Shown here: positions 31,538 through 41,633 of the stretch, piece by piece
Numbering within the stretch: the first letter of the stretch is position 1
How the letters are laid out: each line of letters opens with the position of its first letter
DNA from: Congzhengia sp.
Lineage (GTDB): Bacteria; Bacillota; Clostridia; UBA1381; UBA9506
NCBI GenBank assembly: GCA_045657065.1
Contig: JAZOSI010000051.1
Location: 1 to 41,633 of the forward strand
Direction of reading: 5' to 3'
DNA: 41,633 nt
Notes under the pieces: generated by a model
The model's database searches: none
What the model was told of the DNA's origin: nothing
The model's input: the letters and a program-made list of their open reading frames with translations, nothing else
Translations under genes and position numbers: made by a program

Positions 31538-31577
31538 AAAAAACACGGCACACCCATAAAGGGCATACCGTGTTTTT
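31538..31577 (-). terminator. tRNA terminator
   Basis: aaaaacacggcacaccc-ataaa-gggcataccgtgttttt immediately after the CCA end. Confidence 0.8.
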
Positions 31578-31630
31578 GGTGCGGGCGAGGAGACTTGAAC
31601 TCCTATGCTCTTGCGAGCACATGGACCTGA
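31577..31630 (-). pseudogene. 3' half of tRNA-Leu(CAG), i.e. an att site
   Basis: Minus strand TCAGGTCCATGTGCTCGCAAGAGCATAGGAGTTCAAGTCTCCTCGCCCGCACCA has anticodon CAG, a long variable arm, T-loop GTTCAAG and CCA; the 5' anticodon stem, D arm and 5' acceptor strand are missing. Confidence 0.88.
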
Positions 31631-31840
31631 TGATAGCGTCCCTTCGGTGAAAAATGAAAAACCGCATAAAATTAGGGGTTTCAGGTGTATATAACCTACA
31701 AAAACTCCTGATTTTTTATGCTAATTTCATTCTATGGAATTGGTAGAATGAAATTGAAAATGAAATATAATTCAAATAAAAACAAATTAGTCGTATCGTA
31801 ATGATGCGGCTTTTTTAATTACAGAAACGGAGGAATTAAA

Positions 31841-32143
31841 ATGCCAAAATTAAATAGCAATTTTACAAACATATTAAACAAACTTATCACAGATAAAAAC
31901 ATTACTACCGCGGAATATCGCATACTATGTTATCTGCTTATGAGAGCAGGAAATCAAAATGTTTGTTACCCTTCTCTTAATACAATATCCAAAGATATAG
32001 ACATTAGTTTAAGTACGGTTAAAAGAGCAATTCCTGAACTTGTGGACAAAGGTTATCTAAAAAAGATAAATCGAAAAAGGAAAAATGGTTCCTCTACATC
32101 AAATCTCTATAAATTTACAGGCAAGGTTTATGGAACAGGCTAA
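31841..32143 (+). CDS. Helix-turn-helix (HTH_36-like) protein
   Basis: CYPSLNTISKDIDISLSTVKRAIPELVDKGYL...SNLY is typical of the N-termini of replication-initiator-like winged HTH proteins; ggagg RBS. Confidence 0.8.
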   Translation: MPKLNSNFTNILNKLITDKNITTAEYRILCYLLMRAGNQNVCYPSLNTISKDIDISLSTVKRAIPELVDKGYLKKINRKRKNGSSTSNLYKFTGKVYGTG

Positions 32144-32801
32144 AAATATAGTGGCTCATATTTTGCTGAGGTAGTATCAGGATGGGCTACAAATAATACT
32201 TAGATAATAATACAATAATGGATATTGCAAAAGAATAATATAAGCAATAAAATACATCGATGATTTAATTGATTGGCACTTCTTGTAGAGATTCGCAAAT
32301 TAATTATTTTTTATTCCAATATCCCTTCAATACAAACTTTCGCAATGTACCATGGCTCGACAATGGAGGCTTGAAGTTAAAAAATAGCGGTAAGGTAATT
32401 ACACACCCTCGATCAGTTTAGTCGCTCGTACCCAAGGTTGAACAGGGCTACTGAGGCGTTAAAATCGATGTTGTGTTCCTGATTAGAATAAATATATTTT
32501 TAATCCAATAACCCTATCTGTATAAAAATCATATAGAATACACCGCTGCTAAAATGATAAAACGATACATGAAAATCACTGCAGTTAGACTGAAAATCAG
32601 TCAAAATAAATTGAAGCAGGAAAAAGCACAGGTGCATTTTGATGCCCCTGAGCCTCTAACACCGCACGGCAGAGCCGTTCGGGGTGGTGCTTTAAAAGGC
32701 AGTTTGGTGATAATTCGGGTGCTATATATGGTAAAACGAAGAATTAAAGCAATAAATATCAGGTGCTTCGCAGTGTGAAGCACCCAAAAGGAGGATTTTT
32801 A

Positions 32802-33230
32802 ATGAGTAAACAAAAAGAAAGTAAACACATAAGCATATGGATTCCCGACAGCCTGTTAAAAGAGTGTGATATCAATCAAATTAGATACGATGTTAAGACT
32901 CGCAGCGAGTTTGTTGTGCAGGCGCTTGAATTTTATAATGCGTATTTATTTAATAGACACATTTCGGAATATGTGAATGTTGAAATTCTAAATCGTATGG
33001 AAGGTATGTTGGATAGTCTTGAAGACAGAATCGGTAGACAGATGTTCAAATTGATAGTTGAATCTGCAAAGATATGCAGAATATTATTTGATCATCTTGA
33101 ACTTGATTTTGATGATTTTGATGAACTACACGAAAGATGCGTTAAAGAAGCAAAACATCTCAACGGAGCGATTACTTTTCCATCGTCAATGAGAGGGAAA
33201 AAGCTCGCAGAATTAGATGAGGAGGATTGA
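32802..33230 (+). CDS. Ribbon-helix-helix-like protein (putative relaxosome accessory), copy 1
   Basis: HISIWI strand followed by TRSEFVVQALEFY helix; aaggagg RBS. Confidence 0.65.
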   Translation: MSKQKESKHISIWIPDSLLKECDINQIRYDVKTRSEFVVQALEFYNAYLFNRHISEYVNVEILNRMEGMLDSLEDRIGRQMFKLIVESAKICRILFDHLELDFDDFDELHERCVKEAKHLNGAITFPSSMRGKKLAELDEED

Positions 33231-33234
33231 AAAA

Positions 33235-33648
33235 ATGGCAAAGAAACATATAAGTTTTTGGATTGAAGATAAGGATTTAAAAGAGTGTGATGCAAATGTA
33301 ATTGCATCAGATTATGAAAGCAGAAGTGAATACATTGCCGAAGCTGTTAGGTTCTATAATTCATACTTACATAACAAAAATAATGAAGAATATATTAATC
33401 AATATATCAGAGATAATTTGTCAGGATTGATGAAAAAGTTTGAAAATCGTACTGCACGATTAATGTTCAAACAAGCAGTCGAAACTTCAAAAATATTTTG
33501 GTTGTTGATTAAACAATTTAAAATCAATTATGAGAACGCTGACACTCTCCATAATAGTTGCATTGAGGAGGTGAAAAAAATCAATGGTGCAATACAATAT
33601 CCATTCGTAAAAGAAGAAAAGAATTACGATGATGATTGGCTGTTATGA
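33235..33648 (+). CDS. Ribbon-helix-helix-like protein, copy 2 (paralog)
   Basis: KHISFWI...SRSEYIAEAVRFYN...RLMFKQAVE...CIEEVKKINGAI aligns end to end with copy 1. Confidence 0.65.
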   Translation: MAKKHISFWIEDKDLKECDANVIASDYESRSEYIAEAVRFYNSYLHNKNNEEYINQYIRDNLSGLMKKFENRTARLMFKQAVETSKIFWLLIKQFKINYENADTLHNSCIEEVKKINGAIQYPFVKEEKNYDDDWLL

Positions 33649-33718: not shown

Positions 33719-33747
33719 TTGACAGACTATCACTTTGGTGATATAAT
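33719..33747 (+). promoter_or_regulatory. Extended -10 sigma-A promoter with palindromic operator
   Basis: TTGACA (33719), 17 nt, TGnTATAAT (33739-33747); TATCAC-tttg-GTGATA (33728-33743). Confidence 0.85.
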
Positions 33748-33774: not shown

Positions 33775-34452
33775 ATGAAAAAAATAATATGGCATGGCTC
33801 TCCGGAAATAATCGAAAAGCCTGTATTCGGATTAGGCAAAGAAAATAATGACTATGGCTTGGGATTCTATTGCACAGAAACTTTGGAACTTGCAAAAGAG
33901 TGGGCTTGTCAGAAACCTGCCAAAGATGGATATGCTAATTGCTATGAACTTAATATAGATGGACTCACTACACTTGATTTATCGGGTGATGAATATACAA
34001 TACTGAACTGGCTTGCGGTTCTTGCCAATAACAGAAACTTCAGAGTATCAACTGCAGTGTCAAAACAAGGCAGAGATTATCTGTTAAATAACTTCCTGCC
34101 CGATATATCAAACTATGATATAATCACCGGCTATCGTGCAGATGACTCATATTTCTCATTCGCAAGAGCTTTCGTAAATAACCAGATATCCATTGAGCAA
34201 TTGTCCGAGGCAATGAAGCTCGGGAAACTCGGTGAGCAGATTGTATTAAAGAGTGAAAAAGCATTCGATGCAATCAAATTCCAAAAGTATGAAATTGCTG
34301 ACAGTGCAGAATATTATATCAAGAGAAAAAAACGAAACGAAGAAGCTAATAAGCAGTTCAGACTTCAGCAAGAGGTTGATGATATCAACGGATTATTTAT
34401 GCGTGATATAATCAGGGAAAGGATTGATAATAATGATTCACGCTTACGATGA
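33775..34452 (+). CDS. DUF3990-family protein (ADP-ribosyltransferase-like fold; putative toxin)
   Basis: IIWHGS...NDYGLGFYCT...LAKEWA and YDIITGYRADD. Confidence 0.8.
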   Translation: MKKIIWHGSPEIIEKPVFGLGKENNDYGLGFYCTETLELAKEWACQKPAKDGYANCYELNIDGLTTLDLSGDEYTILNWLAVLANNRNFRVSTAVSKQGRDYLLNNFLPDISNYDIITGYRADDSYFSFARAFVNNQISIEQLSEAMKLGKLGEQIVLKSEKAFDAIKFQKYEIADSAEYYIKRKKRNEEANKQFRLQQEVDDINGLFMRDIIRERIDNNDSRLR

Positions 34453-35071
34453 AATGTATGTTGACAGTGCAATGAATAACTTAGGTGATGCCTTTGATTA
34501 TGTCGCAAGCGACCTTAATATGGATAAGGATGAATTCCTGAAATTATTTATATCTACCGGAATTGCAGAAGAATTCGGCAATGGCAACCCGAAATATATA
34601 ATGGGAATGTCAGGACCAGAGCTTGTTGAAGAAGTGCTAAATGAAGCAGGCATAGAAAGACTTGTTCCGCCGAGTAGTGAGAATATAAACAAGCATAGAG
34701 ATTACTGGTGCGGATGGATACTTGCATTTTATCAGTGGTATTCCAAAAGACCATTTAATAATATAGCAAGACATATTAAAATGAGCGATATTGAAGTTAT
34801 GTTTGACCTCTACCACGAAGCACCCGAAGAAAAGTTTGCAGACACAGTAGAGAAAATGATTAAAGAAAAAAATGAGCCTACAAGACTTCAGGTAATCAGA
34901 AAAAGCTGCGGAATAACCCAAAATGAGCTTGCACAGCAGTCAGGCGTATCACTTCGCTCTATCCAGATGTATGAGCAGAGAAACAAGGATATAAATAAAG
35001 CCCAAATGGAAACCGTCAACAATCTTGCAAAAGTTCTTGGCTGCAAGATGGAAGATTTGATGGAGTATTAA
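34433..35071 (+). CDS. Putative antitoxin: DUF3791-like N-terminus plus C-terminal XRE HTH
   Basis: Overlaps the DUF3990 gene; RKSCGITQNELAQQSGVSLRSIQMYEQR HTH. Confidence 0.8.
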   Translation: MIHAYDEMYVDSAMNNLGDAFDYVASDLNMDKDEFLKLFISTGIAEEFGNGNPKYIMGMSGPELVEEVLNEAGIERLVPPSSENINKHRDYWCGWILAFYQWYSKRPFNNIARHIKMSDIEVMFDLYHEAPEEKFADTVEKMIKEKNEPTRLQVIRKSCGITQNELAQQSGVSLRSIQMYEQRNKDINKAQMETVNNLAKVLGCKMEDLMEY

Positions 35072-35146
35072 AAATTAGAATAAAAACTTAAGAGAGTCCG
35101 TTTTTAAGGACACTAATAATGTTAGAATTATACTGGAGTTGTTAGT

Positions 35147-38100
35147 ATGAATACAAATAAAAACACAGTAGCGTTTAGCGGTTATAGAACCGAGAAACTA
35201 CCTGAAAATATAGATCCAATAAGAATGAATTTGAGAGATACAGTTGTTAAATGTATTGAAGATGGTTATGATACCTTTCTGTGCGGTATGGCAGACGGGT
35301 TTGATTTGATGGCAGCGGAAGTTGTTTTAGACTTAAAAAGAACAAAGGCTATCAAATTGATTTGTGTTATTCCTTTTGATGATGGCAGAGAGAAAAACTT
35401 AACATATAATTCTATACTCGAAAATGCGGATGAAAAAGTAGTTCTTTCTGACAAGTTCAGTTATGATTCATACTACAAAAGAAATGAGTATATGGTAGAT
35501 AATTGCGATAAACTCGTCTGCTATTATGACGGTAGATACGGTGGAACTGAATATACAGTTGATTATGCAAATAAAAAAGGTGTTCCTGTAATTAATTTAT
35601 GGGATAATATTACACCCGAACTTCGTATGCCAAAACAGATAGACAACAAAAGAGAAAAAGTTGTTGATGAACTGAAAGATGCTCTTAGAAAAGGCTCAAA
35701 TCTTTCGGTTATTTCTGCATATTTTACTATTTATGCCTATGCAGAATTAAAAAAAGAATTATCTCGAATAGACAACATGAGATTTCTCTTTAAAGAACCC
35801 ACATTTGTTAAAAAAGATGATGAACTGCTCCGTCAGTATTATATAGACCATAAGGGCGAAAAAGATATTTCAGGAAATGAATTTGAAATAAGACTTCGTA
35901 ACGAATTAAAGCAAGGATCTATTGCGAAGGAATGTGCTAAATGGATAAGAGAAAAGGTTGAAATGAAATCATTCAAGAAACCAAATCCTGCACAACCCAG
36001 AATGATACATATTGATAACCCCAAAGATGCTGTAATGATAAATGGCACAGTTGACTTTACAACAGACGGACTTGGTATTACTCCTTCTAACAGAATTGAC
36101 AGTAATATGTGTATCTATGGTAAAGAAATGACATCAAACTTTCTTCGTCAGTTCAATGAAATCTGGACAGACGATATGACAGTTGAAGATGTCAAAGAAA
36201 AAGTATTGGAACAGATGCAGATTTTGTACAAAGAAAATCCTCCTGAATTTATATATTTTATAACCCTTTATAATCTGTTTTATGATAGCCTGAGTGAACT
36301 TACAGAAGAAAATATTATAAAGTCTAAAACGGGTTTTAAAGAAACACTTATATGGAATAAACTCTATAAGTTCCAGCAAGACGGTGTGCTTGGAATTATA
36401 GATAAAATGGAAAAATGGGGCGGTTGTATTTTAGCTGACAGCGTTGGTCTTGGTAAAACTTTTACTGCACTTGCAGTAATAAAATACTACGAACTCAGAA
36501 ATTCAAGAATACTTGTTCTTGCACCTAAAAAACTGCGTGAGAACTGGACAATCTTTACCCAGAACGATACGAGAAATATCTTCACGGAAGATAGATTTGG
36601 TTATACTGTTTTAAATCATACTGACCTCTCTCGTACAAGTGGTTTTTCGGGTGATGTTCCTCTTGCCACGCTTAACTGGTCCAACTACGACTTGGTGGTA
36701 ATTGACGAAAGTCATAATTTTAGGAATAATCACCCTGTTAAAGGCAAGGTAACACGCTATGAAAAGCTGATGAATGATATTATCAAGAAAGGCGTTAAAA
36801 CAAAGGTTTTGATGCTTTCTGCGACACCTGTAAATAACCGAATGAACGATATTAAAAATCAGATTGGTTTTATTACCGAGGGGAACAATAATTTGTTCCA
36901 GGATGCAGGCGTTCCTAATGTTGAAAATATCCTCAAAAAAGCACAGATGGTGTTTAATAAGTGGCAGACACTCCCTGAAGATAAAAGGACATCTGACCGT
37001 TTTGTTGAGATGATGGATTTAGACTATTTCAAACTTCTTGATACTGTTACCATTGCACGTTCAAGACGACATATTGAGAAGTATTATAATCTTGCGGAAA
37101 TAGGCAAATTCCCTGAAAGAATGCCTCCCAAGAATTTGTATCCTGATATTGATACAAAACACGAGTTTCCTAAAATCGAAGATGTTAATAAACTCATAAA
37201 GAAACTCACTCTTTGTGTATATTCTCCACTCGGATATGTGCTCCCTGAAAAAAGAGCAGAATATAGCAAAAAGTATGATGTGGCTGTTGCAGATGGCAAG
37301 TCTATCTTTAAACAGGTTGACCGTGAAAACAGCTTGGTAGATTTGATGCGTGTAGGCATCTTGAAGAGAATGGAGAGTTCTATCTATTCTTTCGGTCTTA
37401 CGGTTGAAAAGATTATTGAGAAAATCAATTTCACATTAGAGAGAATTGAACAAAATCAGTATGAATTTAACGACACTCTTTCTATTAACGATATAGACCT
37501 TGATGACAACGAACTCGATGATCTTATGCTTGGTAATACTGTTAAGGTTCTTTTGCAGGATATGGACCTAATCCGTTGGAAACAAGATTTGCTTTCAGAC
37601 AAAGAAAAACTCGAACAAATACTTAGTGCGGCAAAAGAAGTTGGACCAGACAGAGATAACAAGCTTTTGGAGCTTAAAAAAGTTATTAGAGAAAAACAGG
37701 CAAACCCAATAAATAAAGGCAATGAAAAAATAATTATATTTACAGCTTTTGCAGATACTGCCGAATATCTTTATAAGAATATTGCGGAAGAAATGAAATC
37801 ACAAGGCAAATACACCGCAATGGTGTCTGGTTCAGGGGATAATAAATCTACTGTGCCGATACCAAAAGAATTGAGAAATCTGATTAAGGTGAGCGATCTA
37901 AACAGTGTTCTCACACTATTTTCGCCAAAATCAAAGGAAATGGCAAAAGTATTTCCTGAGATGACAGAAACTATTGATATTTTGATTGCAACAGACTGTA
38001 TTTCAGAAGGTCAGAACTTGCAGGACTGCGACTATCTTATCAATTATGATATCCACTGGAATCCTGTAAGAATTATTCAGAGATTTGGTCGTATAGACCG

Positions 38101-38881
38101 TCTTGGCAGTACCAATGATTATATTCAGCTTGTGAATTTCTGGCCTAATATGGAACTTGATGAATACATAAACCTCGGACAAAGAGTTAAAGGCAGAATG
38201 GTGCTATTAGATGTTTCTGCAACAGGTGATGATAATGTCATTGATGAAAGCAAGGAAAAGAAAGACCTTGAATACCGTAAGAAGCAGCTTATGAAACTCA
38301 AAAACGAAGTTGTTGACTTGGAAGATATCGCAGGCAATATTTCTATCACAGACCTTACATTTAACGACTTTAAGATTGACCTTATGGAGTATATGAAAAC
38401 CAATCGCAAAAAGCTTGACGATGCTCCTATGGGAATGTATGCAATAGCACAAATACCTGATAATCTTAAAGATACTATTCAGCCTGGTGTAATATTCACA
38501 TTAAAGCAGATTGAAGGTCGTGAGCAGACAAAAGAGCAAAATGCCTTTTATCCGCATTATCTTGCTTATGTTAAAGAAGATGGCGAAACCGTGATGAACT
38601 TTGTTCAAAGCAAGAAAATTCTTGACTGCTATAAAAAACTGTGCAATGGACAGACAGAAGTATTAAAAGATCTTGCTGATGAATTTAATCGCACTACAGA
38701 AGACGGCAAAAACATGGGCATATATTCTGATTTGCTTGAAAATGCTATCGATAACCTTATCGGCAAAAAGCAAGAAGCCGGTATTGCAAGTCTTTTCTCG
38801 AAAGGCGGCGGAATTATTGATAATGAAGCGTTTGATGGCATTGAAGATTTCGAATTAGTAAGTTTCTTGATTATGAAGTAG
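35147..38881 (+). CDS. SLOG(YspA/DUF1273)-degenerate PLD-SNF2/SF2 helicase fusion
   Basis: aa 1-152 SLOG motifs VAFSGYR, GMADGFD, RNEYMVD and GGTEYT; PLD-like ISAYFT...GTVDFT; helicase motifs ADSVGLGKT, DESH, SATP, SEGQNLQ and QRFGRIDR. Confidence 0.88.
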   Translation: MNTNKNTVAFSGYRTEKLPENIDPIRMNLRDTVVKCIEDGYDTFLCGMADGFDLMAAEVVLDLKRTKAIKLICVIPFDDGREKNLTYNSILENADEKVVLSDKFSYDSYYKRNEYMVDNCDKLVCYYDGRYGGTEYTVDYANKKGVPVINLWDNITPELRMPKQIDNKREKVVDELKDALRKGSNLSVISAYFTIYAYAELKKELSRIDNMRFLFKEPTFVKKDDELLRQYYIDHKGEKDISGNEFEIRLRNELKQGSIAKECAKWIREKVEMKSFKKPNPAQPRMIHIDNPKDAVMINGTVDFTTDGLGITPSNRIDSNMCIYGKEMTSNFLRQFNEIWTDDMTVEDVKEKVLEQMQILYKENPPEFIYFITLYNLFYDSLSELTEENIIKSKTGFKETLIWNKLYKFQQDGVLGIIDKMEKWGGCILADSVGLGKTFTALAVIKYYELRNSRILVLAPKKLRENWTIFTQNDTRNIFTEDRFGYTVLNHTDLSRTSGFSGDVPLATLNWSNYDLVVIDESHNFRNNHPVKGKVTRYEKLMNDIIKKGVKTKVLMLSATPVNNRMNDIKNQIGFITEGNNNLFQDAGVPNVENILKKAQMVFNKWQTLPEDKRTSDRFVEMMDLDYFKLLDTVTIARSRRHIEKYYNLAEIGKFPERMPPKNLYPDIDTKHEFPKIEDVNKLIKKLTLCVYSPLGYVLPEKRAEYSKKYDVAVADGKSIFKQVDRENSLVDLMRVGILKRMESSIYSFGLTVEKIIEKINFTLERIEQNQYEFNDTLSINDIDLDDNELDDLMLGNTVKVLLQDMDLIRWKQDLLSDKEKLEQILSAAKEVGPDRDNKLLELKKVIREKQANPINKGNEKIIIFTAFADTAEYLYKNIAEEMKSQGKYTAMVSGSGDNKSTVPIPKELRNLIKVSDLNSVLTLFSPKSKEMAKVFPEMTETIDILIATDCISEGQNLQDCDYLINYDIHWNPVRIIQRFGRIDRLGSTNDYIQLVNFWPNMELDEYINLGQRVKGRMVLLDVSATGDDNVIDESKEKKDLEYRKKQLMKLKNEVVDLEDIAGNISITDLTFNDFKIDLMEYMKTNRKKLDDAPMGMYAIAQIPDNLKDTIQPGVIFTLKQIEGREQTKEQNAFYPHYLAYVKEDGETVMNFVQSKKILDCYKKLCNGQTEVLKDLADEFNRTTEDGKNMGIYSDLLENAIDNLIGKKQEAGIASLFSKGGGIIDNEAFDGIEDFELVSFLIMK

Positions 38882-39577
38882 GTGAAGATGTTGTTTGGCA
38901 TAAATGAAAATTGTAAGCTAGATCAGTTTGTAGCAAAGAAAAACTTTTATACATACGGGGATTTGACAAGTAGCGATAAAACGCTTTTTACAGACAACAT
39001 CTCAAAGATAACTCTTTTACATCAGATTGCACCAAACAAGATAAATATAGCACCATATAAAGATGATAAAAGAGAATATCCTATGATAAATGTCTTTAAG
39101 GTTGAACTGAATAAAGATGAGAAGATAAAACGCATAGCGGAAATTATTATGAAGTCAATTCCTTATCCTATGCTGCTTATCTTTGAATTTGAGGAAAAGG
39201 TTCAGCTGTGGACAGCTCATCAGCGAATTAATCAAAATGATGAAAGCAAGAATGTGCTTGATGAATTTGTCTTTTCCGATTGGGAAAATGATATAACCTG
39301 GTTTGATGTTTCTAAAATGAATATGACAAACTTCTATGCCCTATACTCCGCTATGGTGGATTGCATTTCAGTACATAATGCTCAAAGTATAGTTCAAATA
39401 GACAATATAACCGGAGCGGAGGCTCGGGAACTTACCGGTAAATTAGAGGAAATAGAAAATCAGATTACAACCTTAAGGGCAAAAATAAAAAAAGAAACCC
39501 AGTTTAATAAGCGTATTGAAATCAATATCGAAATTAAGAAACTGGAACAGAAGAAAAAAGAGATTCTGGAGGGATAA
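38882..39577 (+). CDS. DUF4391-family protein
   Basis: SIPYPMLLIF and C-terminal KETQFNKRIEINIEIKKL; usual position between the helicase and type III mod. Confidence 0.8.
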   Translation: MKMLFGINENCKLDQFVAKKNFYTYGDLTSSDKTLFTDNISKITLLHQIAPNKINIAPYKDDKREYPMINVFKVELNKDEKIKRIAEIIMKSIPYPMLLIFEFEEKVQLWTAHQRINQNDESKNVLDEFVFSDWENDITWFDVSKMNMTNFYALYSAMVDCISVHNAQSIVQIDNITGAEARELTGKLEEIENQITTLRAKIKKETQFNKRIEINIEIKKLEQKKKEILEG

Positions 39578-39578
39578 T

Positions 39579-40691
39579 ATGGAGAAGAAAAAAGTTTTTG
39601 TTATAATGCCTTTTGACGATGAATTCTTTGATGTTTATGAAATGCTAAAAAAGGAATTTCAAGATGATTTTGAATTTTCAAATGCAGGCGTTGAAGATAA
39701 CCAAACAAATATTTTGGCAGATATAATTCAACCAATATTTGAAGCTGATGTTATCCTTGCTGATTTAACAGGCTTGAATCCTAATGTGTTATACGAACTT
39801 GGAGTGGCACACGCTTTTAACAAGAAAACAATTATCATTACGCAAGACGAACTTTCAAAACTTCCGTTTGATTTGAAATCATATAGAACAAAAGACTATT
39901 CTACCCATTTTAGAAAGTTTGCGGATTTGATTGAATACTTAAATAAAAATTTAAAGGGTGCTATATCTGGCGAAGTTGTGTTTAGTAATCCTGTAAAAGA
40001 TTTTATTAATTTAAACAATATAGATTTAGAAAAGAGCTTTTCTGAGGATAAAGTCATTGTAGATATTCCACAGGACGAAAAAGGATTTCTTGACTTCTTG
40101 GCTGATGTCGAAGAAAACACCGAAGAACTAACAAATAACATTAATACGATGTCGCACGAAATAACTGTTATGAATGCCGGTGTGAATGATTGTACATCTG
40201 AAATAAATAGAGTTAATAAGACTGGTGGTAGCGGTACTGCATCATTCGTTAGAAAGCAGGCAAAAAAAGCTGCAGGATATATGGATGATTATTGTAGATC
40301 CTTGAATGATTACAACAAAAAGCATGAACCTTTATGGGATAAAATCGAAAAAGATACTCTTGGATTATTAGAAAACGAATTTGCAACAAATGAAAATAAC
40401 AAAGAGAATCTTATAAAATATTTAATTAGTTTGGCTAATATGAAAAATTCGATTGTTGGCACAATAACATCGTTTACATCTATGAAAACTGCATCTCTGA
40501 ACAATAGAGGTTTGGAAAGAACACTTACCCAATCCATAAATGCAATGGATCAGGAAATAGATGTATATCTCGAATTGTTAAACAAAACTATATCTTCTAT
40601 TGATAAGATTTTGCAAAGAAGTAAATTTGTTGTTGGTGATATTGATTTTGAAAATGTAGAGCAGGAAACGGAGGAAATAGAAAATGATTGA
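39579..40691 (+). CDS. Nucleoside 2-deoxyribosyltransferase/TIR-like domain plus long helical C-terminal domain
   Basis: VFVIMPF...ADLTGLNPNVLYELGVAHA...LPFDL; ggaggg RBS before ATG 39579. Confidence 0.8.
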   Translation: MEKKKVFVIMPFDDEFFDVYEMLKKEFQDDFEFSNAGVEDNQTNILADIIQPIFEADVILADLTGLNPNVLYELGVAHAFNKKTIIITQDELSKLPFDLKSYRTKDYSTHFRKFADLIEYLNKNLKGAISGEVVFSNPVKDFINLNNIDLEKSFSEDKVIVDIPQDEKGFLDFLADVEENTEELTNNINTMSHEITVMNAGVNDCTSEINRVNKTGGSGTASFVRKQAKKAAGYMDDYCRSLNDYNKKHEPLWDKIEKDTLGLLENEFATNENNKENLIKYLISLANMKNSIVGTITSFTSMKTASLNNRGLERTLTQSINAMDQEIDVYLELLNKTISSIDKILQRSKFVVGDIDFENVEQETEEIEND

Positions 40692-41633
40692 AACAAAATT
40701 AAACGGACAGACGCTTGATGTTGTTGCAGAAAATGTAAAAAAGCTCAGAGAGTTATTTCCGGAGATTGTAGTTGAAGATAAAATTGATTTTGACAGATTG
40801 CAGGATGTTTTAGGAAATTACATAGAGAGAAACGATGAAAGTTATCGTTTTAATTGGTATGGTAAAAGCGATGCTTTCAGAAAATCGCAGACCCCCTCTA
40901 CCGGTACCTTGCGTCCTTGCGTAGAAGAAAGTAAAAACTGGGACGCAACAGAAAATCTTTATATTGAAGGCGATAACCTTGAAGTATTGAAGATTTTGGA
41001 AAAGAGTTATAGTGGTAAAATCAAAATGATTTACATAGATCCTCCGTATAACAAGGATAAAGATTTCATTTATCCCGATAAATGGAGCGATCCTATCAAA
41101 GAGTATAAGAAGATTACAGGTCAAATTAATGATGATGGAACAATGACCGATACAGAAAACGAAACCGAAGGTGGTCGTCATACAAATTGGTTGAGCATGA
41201 TGTATCCACGCCTTCGAAAAGCAAGAAATCTACTTAAAGAAGACGGTGTTATCTTCATAAGCATCGATGATGTAGAACTTTCAAACTTAAAAAGATTATG
41301 TAATGATGTATTCGGAGAAGAAAATGTAGATGTTTTAGTTTGGCAAAAAACCGATCCGTGGGTAGATAGAAATACAAATGCAAAACAAATAAGTCGTTTT
41401 CTAGAGTTTAAAGAATATATAGTGATAGCCTATAAAGATAAATCTATCACATCATTTAACAAAATAAGCCGTTTACCTGACTGGAAACACTCACAAAAAA
41501 ATCCCGATAATGATCCGAGGGGAAATTGGCAATCTGGAATATTTTCATATGAGGAAGGACACAAAAACGAAGATGTTACTTCCGATTCATATTTTGAAAT
41601 AACTACACCAGGCGGAAAAAAATATACTCGTAT
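40684..41633 (+). CDS. mod: Type III R-M DNA adenine methyltransferase Mod (3'-truncated; absent from ORF track)
   Basis: Hand translation MIETKLNGQTLDVV...NLYIEGDNLEVLK...IYIDPPYN...HTNWLSMMYPRL...FISIDD; open to the window end. Confidence 0.93.
   Translation, partial: MIETKLNGQTLDVVAENVKKLRELFPEIVVEDKIDFDRLQDVLGNYIERNDESYRFNWYGKSDAFRKSQTPSTGTLRPCVEESKNWDATENLYIEGDNLEVLKILEKSYSGKIKMIYIDPPYNKDKDFIYPDKWSDPIKEYKKITGQINDDGTMTDTENETEGGRHTNWLSMMYPRLRKARNLLKEDGVIFISIDDVELSNLKRLCNDVFGEENVDVLVWQKTDPWVDRNTNAKQISRFLEFKEYIVIAYKDKSITSFNKISRLPDWKHSQKNPDNDPRGNWQSGIFSYEEGHKNEDVTSDSYFEITTPGGKKYTR

What the first reader, a model, noticed from the sequence alone, without database searches (positions are those of the whole stretch)
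35147..41633. Candidate composite defence system: type III R-M-like operon augmented with SLOG and NDT/TIR-like nucleotide-handling domains
Seen: four tightly coupled genes. The helicase stop at 38881 abuts the GTG at 38882, there is a 1-nt gap to the ATG at 39579, and the mod ATG at 40684 overlaps the upstream stop. Established: helicase-DUF4391-mod-res is a recurrent Firmicute arrangement; SLOG and TIR/NDT folds act as nucleotide sensors or base/NAD-cleaving enzymes in conflict systems (e.g. Thoeris). Here both are built into the same operon. Inference: a back-up abortive or nucleotide-signalling layer that guards or is wired to the R-M machine. I do not recognise this combination as a named system.
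Basis: partly seen in the sequence, partly recalled or inferred. Interest (0 to 1): 0.82.

Follow-up and report, generated by a model that had tools for sequence, protein, structure and literature searches.

The report
Restriction operon with swappable defence passenger
A likely restriction-modification gene set on a bacterial genomic island has a DNA motor with a conserved, predicted nucleotide-binding head, and carries an unstudied enzyme gene in a slot that related DNA fills with other genes, so that enzyme likely acts as its own anti-phage gene and not as part of one wired system.

Summary
The four genes, their junctions and both extra domains are real. The proposed SLOG-NDT coupling is not supported. 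The backbone is the widespread SNF2 helicase / DUF4391 / type III mod / res cassette; res is cut off by the contig end but follows in 43 of 45 related loci with 8 kb or more downstream. The NDT/TIR-like gene is a passenger. A locus 93% identical in DNA carries a Lamassu-like trio in that slot, and one run contig holds 719 other bases between the same borders. None of 79 helicase loci has the gene, and its own homologs sit beside prophage integrases, tRNAs, an ICE or housekeeping genes. It is a good candidate for an undescribed single-gene abortive defence: invariant Glu73, predicted NDT-type dimer, helical bundle. The YpsA-type SLOG head is a separate, conserved fusion (26 clusters, dN/dS 0.03-0.13) found on two distant helicase subfamilies; its ligand is unknown. 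This scan already noted the cassette many times and the SLOG-headed helicase once, on other DNA. Verdict: new variant of a known kind, moderate interest.

The parts
35147..38881 (+). SLOG-headed PLD-like/SNF2 helicase gene (1244 aa)
   Evidence: One open frame; PADLOC C3a139 'HKD+Snf2' over aa 165-1242, E 1.5e-138; GLGKT aa 434, DESH aa 520, LSATP aa 557, QRFGRIDR aa 978
35147..35626 (+). YpsA-family SLOG head (aa 1-160), joined just before Met161, where the match to unfused helicases begins
   Evidence: PF06908 E 1.4e-15; model matches YpsA 2nx2 at Z 21.6, rmsd 2.4, 156 aligned; Y13, G51, D53, N113, G132-T134 invariant in 26 aligned proteins; dN/dS 0.03-0.13
35627..36202 (+). PLD-fold domain without the HxK nuclease motif; likely catalytically dead
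   Evidence: Fold match to SauUSI 7clg, Z 15.3, rmsd 4.1, 159 aligned; one of 44 rows shows an H-x-K string in that stretch, and not at the motif position
38882..39577 (+). DUF4391 gene (231 aa), fixed part of the cassette
   Evidence: PF14335 E 1e-62; found by tblastn in 42 of 45 loci with 8 kb or more downstream
39579..40691 (+). Passenger gene: NDT/DRHyd- or TIR-like Rossmannoid domain (aa 1-130, Glu73 codon at 39795) plus four-helix bundle (aa 167-352), in an exchangeable slot with borders near 39569 and 40670-40682
   Evidence: Model pLDDT 83; MilB Z 13.6, TIR Z 13.3, NDT Z 13.1, tied; E73 invariant in 55 of 55; slot skipped or replaced in run contigs and in L008
40684..41633 (+). 5' part of a type III mod (DNA methyltransferase) gene, cut by the contig end
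   Evidence: PADLOC MTase_III E 2e-106; DPPY at aa 119, nt 41038; contig ends at 41633
31577..31630 (-). 3' fragment of a tRNA-Leu gene, likely the left attachment site of the island that carries the operon
   Evidence: 40 of 42 nt match a tRNA-Leu(CAG) on another contig; GC falls from 0.398 to 0.344 beyond 31422

Best explanation
The region is a likely type III restriction cassette (SNF2 motor, DUF4391, Mod, and an inferred Res beyond the contig end) with two independent additions: a conserved SLOG head on the motor, predicted to bind a nucleotide, and an exchangeable passenger gene that likely works alone as an abortive anti-phage enzyme. Mechanism, step by step. (1) Mod marks host DNA and Res cuts unmarked DNA: established for type III systems, inferred here. 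(2) The SNF2 motor with its dead PLD domain and DUF4391 likely assist Mod/Res on DNA: inferred from constant linkage. (3) The SLOG head likely binds an adenine- or NAD-derived nucleotide in its intact YpsA-type pocket and tunes the motor; it is optional, since most cassettes lack it. The pocket and the selection are shown; the ligand and the effect are inferred. (4) The passenger likely dimerises through the helix that bears Glu73 and hydrolyses the N-glycosidic bond of NAD+ or a ribonucleotide once its helical bundle meets a phage trigger, so the infected cell stops. Fold, invariant Glu and exchangeability are shown; substrate, trigger and defence are inferred. The passenger rides in the slot because it is transcribed and spread with the cassette, as described for genes embedded in other defence operons. 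Rough odds: independence of the two additions 0.8; passenger is a defence gene 0.6; NAD+ or ribonucleotide hydrolysis is its activity 0.45; SLOG regulates the motor through a small ligand 0.45.
For: Backbone: of 45 related loci with 8 kb or more downstream, 44 have mod, 43 res, 42 DUF4391. Slots: inserts over 300 bp in 15 of 56 DUF4391-mod and 14 of 47 mod-res junctions (one of the 15, L085, is probably only a longer mod), holding AbiD, SIR2-HerA, Menshen, AbiJ, PDC-S02, PDC-S05, Lamassu-like and SieB genes among others. Exchange at this very slot: L008 is 93% identical in DNA over 35161-39597, then carries HNH-CTD11/MC7/LmuB-like genes. One contig of run X7 has 719 other bases between 39569 and 40670, with 255+ matching letters on each side. 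NDT family: 0 of 79 helicase loci by tblastn and by HMM; upstream neighbour seen in 4 homolog loci, never DUF4391; downstream neighbour seen in 3, never mod. Order-wide: 3 and 3 of 239 genomes, overlapping only in G000. Enzyme: E73 aligns with the YELG glutamate of DNPH1 (weak, E 0.025). Homodimer model through residues 66-80: score 0.55, best of 3 controls 0.00; the mark was reached by 20 of 30 solved pairs and 1 of 23 single chains; runs agree in 84% or more of contacts, pLDDT 80 or more; the pass may reflect likeness to solved NDT dimers. DNPH1 dimerises through the same third helix (PMC10603095, passages). SLOG: 26 fused clusters, purifying selection, GxD motif kept (motif per PMC6459960, passages).
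Against: No activity was measured. Res is not seen in this genome, so the copy could be broken downstream (L009 has a truncated mod). NDT-type versus TIR-type is not settled by fold: the Z scores are tied and Pfam is below cut-off. Of the DNPH1 triad only the glutamate is clearly matched. One homolog (L192) lies alone between housekeeping genes, which does not by itself suggest defence. The NDT gene does stay in the slot in several strains of this lineage (runs X1, X8, X9). Only 4 SLOG-headed loci with a visible slot were available, two from one genome, and the assemblies are incomplete. The X2 joint that skips the gene has only 38 letters on its short side at 85% likeness, so it is weak.
Confidence: 0.7

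Rival explanations
1. Wired signalling layer: the NDT/TIR-like enzyme makes an NAD-derived messenger that binds the SLOG head and switches the motor or restriction on, as ThsB signals to ThsA in Thoeris.
For: Both domains belong to the TIR-DrHyd-SLOG class, and YpsA-like SLOGs are proposed sensors of ADP-ribose derivatives (PMC9503650, passages). The genes are tightly packed. They stay together in strains of this lineage. Both active-site motifs are conserved.
Against: Three of three other SLOG-headed loci with a visible slot lack the gene, and the genomes of L007/L008 and L009 gave no full-length member. Five of five informative NDT loci show no helicase cassette in the DNA held. The SLOG model is far closer to YpsA (Z 21.6) than to ThsA SLOG (Z 9.3). 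Other passengers are packed just as tightly.
Confidence: 0.1
2. The SLOG head binds single-stranded DNA, as DprA and ShosA do, and helps the SNF2 motor load on incoming or damaged DNA; no small-molecule signal is involved. The NDT gene is still an independent passenger.
For: The next best fold matches after YpsA are ShosA (Z 15.4) and DprA (Z 14-15). ShosA needs ssDNA binding (PMC12961424, abstract). The head is fused to a DNA motor, and the two-domain model has pTM 0.80.
Against: Sequence and fold place it in the YpsA clade, not with DprA. The conserved residues are those described as the predicted nucleotide pocket (PMC6459960, passages).
Confidence: 0.2
3. The passenger is not a killer but a nucleotide-pool cleaner of the DNPH1/MilB type that removes modified nucleotides (for example phage-made ones), or it is a neutral hitch-hiker.
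For: Best fold matches are MilB, NDTs and DNPH1. L192 sits among housekeeping genes.
Against: It has a conserved 190-residue helical bundle that those enzymes lack. It is patchy (3 of 239 genomes of the order) and mostly sits at mobile-element edges. The slots it shares are filled largely by defence genes.
Confidence: 0.2

Closest known systems
Type III restriction-modification (Mod/Res; EcoP15I type, recalled)
   Same: Type III mod with DPPY; res follows in 43 of 45 long related loci.
   Different: Led by an SNF2 helicase with a dead PLD domain and by DUF4391; here also a SLOG head and a passenger. Res is not visible in this contig.
Defence genes embedded in other systems ('guilt-by-embedding', bioRxiv 10.1101/2024.01.29.577857; parts 1-3 of 5 read)
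   Same: Variable defence cassettes nested between the core genes of a DNA-modification system, functioning on their own and also found outside it.
   Different: The parts read cover Hma, BREX, DISARM and type I R-M, not this type III cassette. The passenger matches no PDC or HEC model in PADLOC-DB 2.0.0, only a partial TIR effector profile.
Thoeris type I (ThsB TIR, ThsA SIR2-SLOG)
   Same: A TIR-like Rossmannoid gene near a SLOG-bearing protein.
   Different: The SLOG is YpsA-type and fused to a helicase, not to SIR2; the two genes do not travel together.
Swarozyc (DUF4062 TIR-like NADase plus auxiliary domain; bioRxiv 10.64898/2026.05.01.722283, passages)
   Same: A TIR/NDT-like domain with a catalytic Glu and an accessory domain in one protein that gives abortive defence: the best working analogy for the passenger.
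   Different: No DUF4062 match in 55 of 55 family members; activity here is untested.
Retron Ec86 NDT-like effector (bioRxiv 10.1101/2023.08.16.553469, passages)
   Same: NDT-like domain, catalytic Glu, dimer through the Glu-bearing helix.
   Different: No reverse transcriptase among the genes scanned from 29558 to the contig end; the second domain is a long helical bundle.
Bacillus subtilis YpsA (PDB 2nx2; PMC6459960, passages)
   Same: Same fold (Z 21.6) and GxD/E motif.
   Different: YpsA stands alone beside gpsB; here the domain heads a 1244-aa motor.

Membership tests
Type III R-M | Mod subunit with type III profile and DPPY motif | tested here: met
   PADLOC MTase_III E 2e-106; DPPY at aa 119
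Type III R-M | res gene downstream of mod | tested here: inconclusive
   Contig ends inside mod; no res found in the 83%-complete assembly; present in 43 of 45 long related loci
Type III R-M | Site-specific methylation and ATP-dependent cleavage | not testable with these tools
   Needs a methylome and an assay
YpsA-family SLOG domain | YpsA profile and fold | tested here: met
   PF06908 58 bits vs cut-off 27.7; 2nx2 Z 21.6, rmsd 2.4, 156 aligned
YpsA-family SLOG domain | GxD/E motif and aromatic residue in the first loop | tested here: met
   G51-F52-D53 aligns with YpsA G-V-E; G51, D53 and Y13 invariant in 26 rows
YpsA-family SLOG domain | Nucleotide binding or hydrolysis | not testable with these tools
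   No ligand data
NDT/DRHyd N-glycosidase | Five-stranded Rossmannoid fold of the NDT/TIR class | tested here: met
   MilB Z 13.6 (rmsd 3.1, 133 aligned), NDT 7o62 Z 13.1, TIR 4c6t Z 13.3, tied
NDT/DRHyd N-glycosidase | Nucleophilic Glu in helix 3 | tested here: met
   E73 in 55 of 55, aligned to the YELG of DNPH1
NDT/DRHyd N-glycosidase | Rest of the triad (Tyr in strand 1, Asp in helix 2) | tested here: inconclusive
   Strand 1 has F7 in 52 of 55 rows (3 gaps) and no Tyr; D48 is invariant but its register against DNPH1 D80 was not fixed by a residue-level superposition (DNPH1 numbering partly recalled)
NDT/DRHyd N-glycosidase | Pfam PF05014 curated cut-off | tested here: not met
   23.6 bits vs 28.8; all 55 members hit it at E 0.01 or better
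Thoeris type I | SLOG fused to a SIR2 effector | tested here: not met
   The domain after the SLOG is PLD-fold, then SNF2
Thoeris type I | Constant linkage of the signal maker and the SLOG effector | tested here: not met
   0 of 3 other SLOG-headed loci with a visible slot carry the gene; overlap only in G000 among 239 genomes
Swarozyc / DUF4062 | DUF4062 profile match | tested here: not met
   0 of 55 members at E 0.01
PLD-helicase nucleases (SauUSI; HKD-helicase of type-2 BREX-related systems) | Intact HxK...D nuclease motif | tested here: not met
   The stretch reads AQPRMIHID...NGTVDF in the window; no conserved HxK in 44 rows
Retron with NDT effector | Adjacent reverse transcriptase and ncRNA | tested here: inconclusive
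   No RT profile among 11 proteins scanned; ncRNA not searched; DNA beyond the contig end unseen

The most novel reading that the evidence does not exclude
The SLOG head is a portable receiver that has been grafted more than once onto the restriction motor so that restriction responds to nucleotide or NAD-derived alarm signals made by whatever passenger the operon carries (the NDT-like enzyme here, a PRTase/DprA-like pair in L007 and L008): a restriction system switched by a second messenger.
Probability: 0.1. Interest if true: 0.85.

Novelty: new variant of a known kind. Interest (0 to 1): 0.42.

Why it matters
It turns one striking-looking operon into two smaller, testable leads. First, a family of at least 875 protein clusters with an NDT/TIR-like domain and a helical bundle that behaves like an embedded defence gene and that I found described nowhere. 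Second, a SLOG head under strong selection on two distant helicase subfamilies, which hints that the unstudied SNF2-DUF4391 module of these type III cassettes can be regulated by a ligand. It also shows that this cassette has two cargo slots like those known in Hma, BREX, DISARM and type I R-M, so it can be mined for new defence genes.

Tried and rejected
Search for res and the rest of mod in the own assembly: nothing. The contig end has no overlap with another contig. One metagenome scan with the single NDT protein gave 1 locus from 121 pattern matches. Viral scans for SLOG-headed helicases gave none; 118 plasmid and 5 phage records hold the helicase, and the 25 listed rows all start at residue 159-165, i.e. 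headless. Plasmid search with the NDT protein: 29 records, none covering 80% of it. Extra genome searches gave no new SLOG-headed locus: own family 0 of 54 others, class sample 0 of 398 others, family and order of G623 only G623 itself. L214 (G535) is SLOG-headed and followed by a DUF4391-like start, but its contig ends before the slot, so it was left out of the slot count. L111 holds only the NDT-like gene on a 1.5-kb contig and was left out of the neighbour count. Runs: 8 of 24 listed were laid; all had small word shares, X6 was uninformative for the slot and X12 looked mixed; parts without cover were not used. Promoter and terminator scan: 48 promoter-like sites vs 42 +/- 6 in shuffles, no signal overall. 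Repeat search: nothing beyond chance-level pairs. Foldseek gave no match at E 0.001 or better for the NDT model. The helical bundle matched only generic bundles and was not folded alone. An accidental read-through fusion was rejected: 26 clusters share it and it is under purifying selection. Literature: DUF4391 occurs in 2 listed papers, neither about this cassette; SLOG+YpsA+helicase 2 papers; type III restriction+SNF2 helicase+phospholipase D+anti-phage 0; SLOG domain+SNF2+restriction-modification 2 listed, not read; searches showed no description of the NDT-bundle family or the cassette in their listings. The 2015 SLOG survey (Burroughs et al., recalled) was not held, and no supplements were read; either could list this fusion.


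Full report
Observation. The window is the whole of contig C51 of an 83%-complete assembly. No res and no mod 3' part were found elsewhere in the assembly. The operon lies on a lower-GC island (0.344 vs 0.398) that begins at a tRNA-Leu 3' fragment near 31577-31630.

The backbone is common. A scan of species-representative genomes with the helicase core found 590 relatives in the part scanned and kept 79 loci from many phyla and from archaea. Of the 45 with 8 kb or more downstream, 44 have mod, 43 res and 42 DUF4391 by tblastn. Res therefore most likely lies just beyond the contig end; that is an inference. The helicase keeps its ATPase motifs. Its PLD-fold domain resembles that of SauUSI (Z 15.3) but has no conserved HxK in 44 aligned rows, so it is probably not a nuclease. 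Earlier notes of this scan describe the same cassette on several other genomes; I saw them after forming this reading, and they are not independent support.

The cassette has two cargo slots. Inserts over 300 bp occur in 15 of 56 DUF4391-mod junctions (one, L085, is probably just a longer mod) and 14 of 47 mod-res junctions. I scanned 45 downstream proteins picked by eye from these loci, plus 9 upstream or core proteins. They include AbiD, AbiEii, AbiJ, SIR2-HerA twice, Menshen, PDC-S02, PDC-S05, a Lamassu-like trio and SieB-like genes, as well as integrase-like, transposase-like and unassigned genes. This is the embedding pattern described for Hma, BREX, DISARM and type I R-M (bioRxiv 10.1101/2024.01.29.577857, parts 1-3 of 5 read).

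The NDT-like gene is such cargo. It is absent from all 79 loci by tblastn and by an HMM of its family. L008 is 93% identical to the window in DNA from 35161 to 39597 and then carries HNH-CTD11, MC7 and an LmuB-like ATPase before mod. L007 has a SieB-like gene there and L009 has nothing. I laid 8 of 24 listed runs. One X7 contig matches the window up to 39569, holds 719 other bases and resumes at 40670. An X10 contig leaves the window after 39581, and an X12 contig joins mod at 40670 from other DNA. An X2 contig skips 39569-40682, though with only 38 letters on its short side. Against this, X1, X8 and X9 have contigs that join DUF4391 to the NDT gene, and X1 and X9 join it to mod, so the gene is a common allele of the slot in this lineage. 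These are pieces from mixed communities, not whole loci. Conversely, full-length homologs lie beside prophage integrases (L112, L113), alone between DUF6198 and DegV genes (L192), directly behind tRNA-Pro and tRNA-Ser genes (L200) and at the edge of a repA/parA-bearing element (L201); three of these five end near the gene on one side. Among 239 genomes of the order, 3 have the NDT family (G000, G566, G620) and 3 a SLOG-headed helicase (G000, G473, G535), overlapping only in the window's genome. Many of these genomes are incomplete.

What the passenger is. The family has 875 clusters at E 0.001 or better; the best 120 align over 96% or more of the length at 54-91% identity. The model (pLDDT 83) has a Rossmannoid domain at 1-130 and four long helices at 167-352, and no membrane segment stands out (highest 19-residue hydropathy 1.4). 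Fold matches to MilB, NDTs and TIR domains are tied at Z 13. E73 is invariant in 55 of 55 rows and aligns with the YELG glutamate of DNPH1. A homodimer is predicted through residues 66-80: score 0.55 against a best control of 0.00; that mark was reached by 20 of 30 solved pairs and 1 of 23 single chains, the runs agree in 84% or more of contacts, pLDDT is 80 or more, and the pass may come from likeness to solved NDT dimers. DNPH1 uses its third helix for dimerisation, and MilB has Phe where DNPH1 has Tyr24, which admits ribose substrates (PMC10603095, passages). Strand 1 here has Phe7 and no Tyr, which would fit NAD+ or a ribonucleotide, but I did not fix that register by superposition. Working analogies are the retron Ec86 effector (passages) and the DUF4062 NADase Swarozyc (passages); the family is not DUF4062 (0 of 55). 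I therefore read it as a likely stand-alone abortive defence enzyme. This is inference from position, patchiness and fold.

The SLOG head is real and separate. All 26 long proteins that matched residues 1-160 are SLOG-helicase fusions of 1224-1273 aa. The head is YpsA-type (Z 21.6 to 2nx2, 15.4 to ShosA, 9.3 to ThsA SLOG) and keeps the GxD/E motif and first-loop aromatic residue described for YpsA (PMC6459960, passages). dN/dS in the head is 0.03 (window-L008), 0.10 (window-L007) and 0.13 (L007-L008); pairs with L009 are saturated. The 26 fused heads in the tree form one starred clade against 23 stand-alone SLOGs of the window's family, a narrow outgroup. The helicases that carry them do not: 7 belong to a distant subfamily (about 52% identity in the motor, 31-39% in the PLD domain), the label needs at least 3 changes on a 92-row tree, and one clade is rejected at p 0.005 on a 29-row subset that I chose after seeing that tree, so the test is post hoc. 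Repeated grafting of one head onto different motors is the simplest reading; one gain with many losses is not excluded without a root. A free-standing 93%-identical head also exists (P0177). Sporadic SLOG fusions to nucleic-acid enzymes in phages have been read as ligand-regulated (PMC9503650, passages), which is the basis for my step 3. The scan noted this fusion once before on another genome (e1-4090195), and a different SLOG on the tail of an R-M-linked SNF2 (e1-3609489, not checked here).

Verdict. The sequence observation stands; the composite-system reading does not, at about 0.1. The best account is a type III-like cassette with an optional SLOG head and an independent passenger. I found no paper on the cassette, the fusion or the passenger family in ten searches of an open-access library (several were for background), but subscription papers, the 2015 SLOG survey and all supplements were unseen. 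New variant of a known kind; interest 0.42.

Noticed in passing
window 33775-35071 (+): DUF3990 gene plus HTH gene match PADLOC candidate PDC-M42A (E 7e-43) and PDC-M42B (E 2e-9), with a perfect sigma-70 consensus at 33719-33747. In run X1 the pieces covering this pair stop near 35074 and begin among other DNA, so it looks like a separate module.
   Followed up: partly
window 31577-33648: tRNA-Leu 3' fragment, then a small HTH_36 gene (31841-32143) and two small genes without a family match (32763-33230, 33217-33648): likely the remains of an integrated element. No integrase is seen in this part.
   Followed up: partly
L007 15104-16247; L008 9820-10975: Both SLOG-headed loci with an intact mod-res junction carry a PRTase gene plus a DprA/SLOG-like gene there (ShosTA-like); none of the other 45 mod-res junctions does. 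Both loci come from one genome, so this is a lead only.
   Followed up: partly
L009 13962-14381: mod is cut short just before the DPPY motif and followed by an ArsR-like gene and a permease-like gene (labels by eye), which looks like an insertion into the methyltransferase gene.
   Followed up: no
L031, L035, L045 (Methanobrevibacter records): mod appears as repeated short N-terminal frames each followed by a frame of about 460-480 aa (three times in L035).
   Followed up: no
proteins P0177 and P0183: P0177 is a 152-aa protein 93% identical to the window's SLOG head but with its own ending; P0183 joins the head's first part to a SieB-like tail. Both point to recombination within the head.
   Followed up: partly
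G000 contig C117, 1094-1549 (-): A stand-alone YpsA-like SLOG gene, 36% identical to the head; similar genes occur in 17 of 54 other genomes of the family.
   Followed up: partly
L113 165-1235: The NDT-family homolog beside the prophage integrase is split into two frames (215 and 115 aa), while the one in L112 is whole.
   Followed up: no
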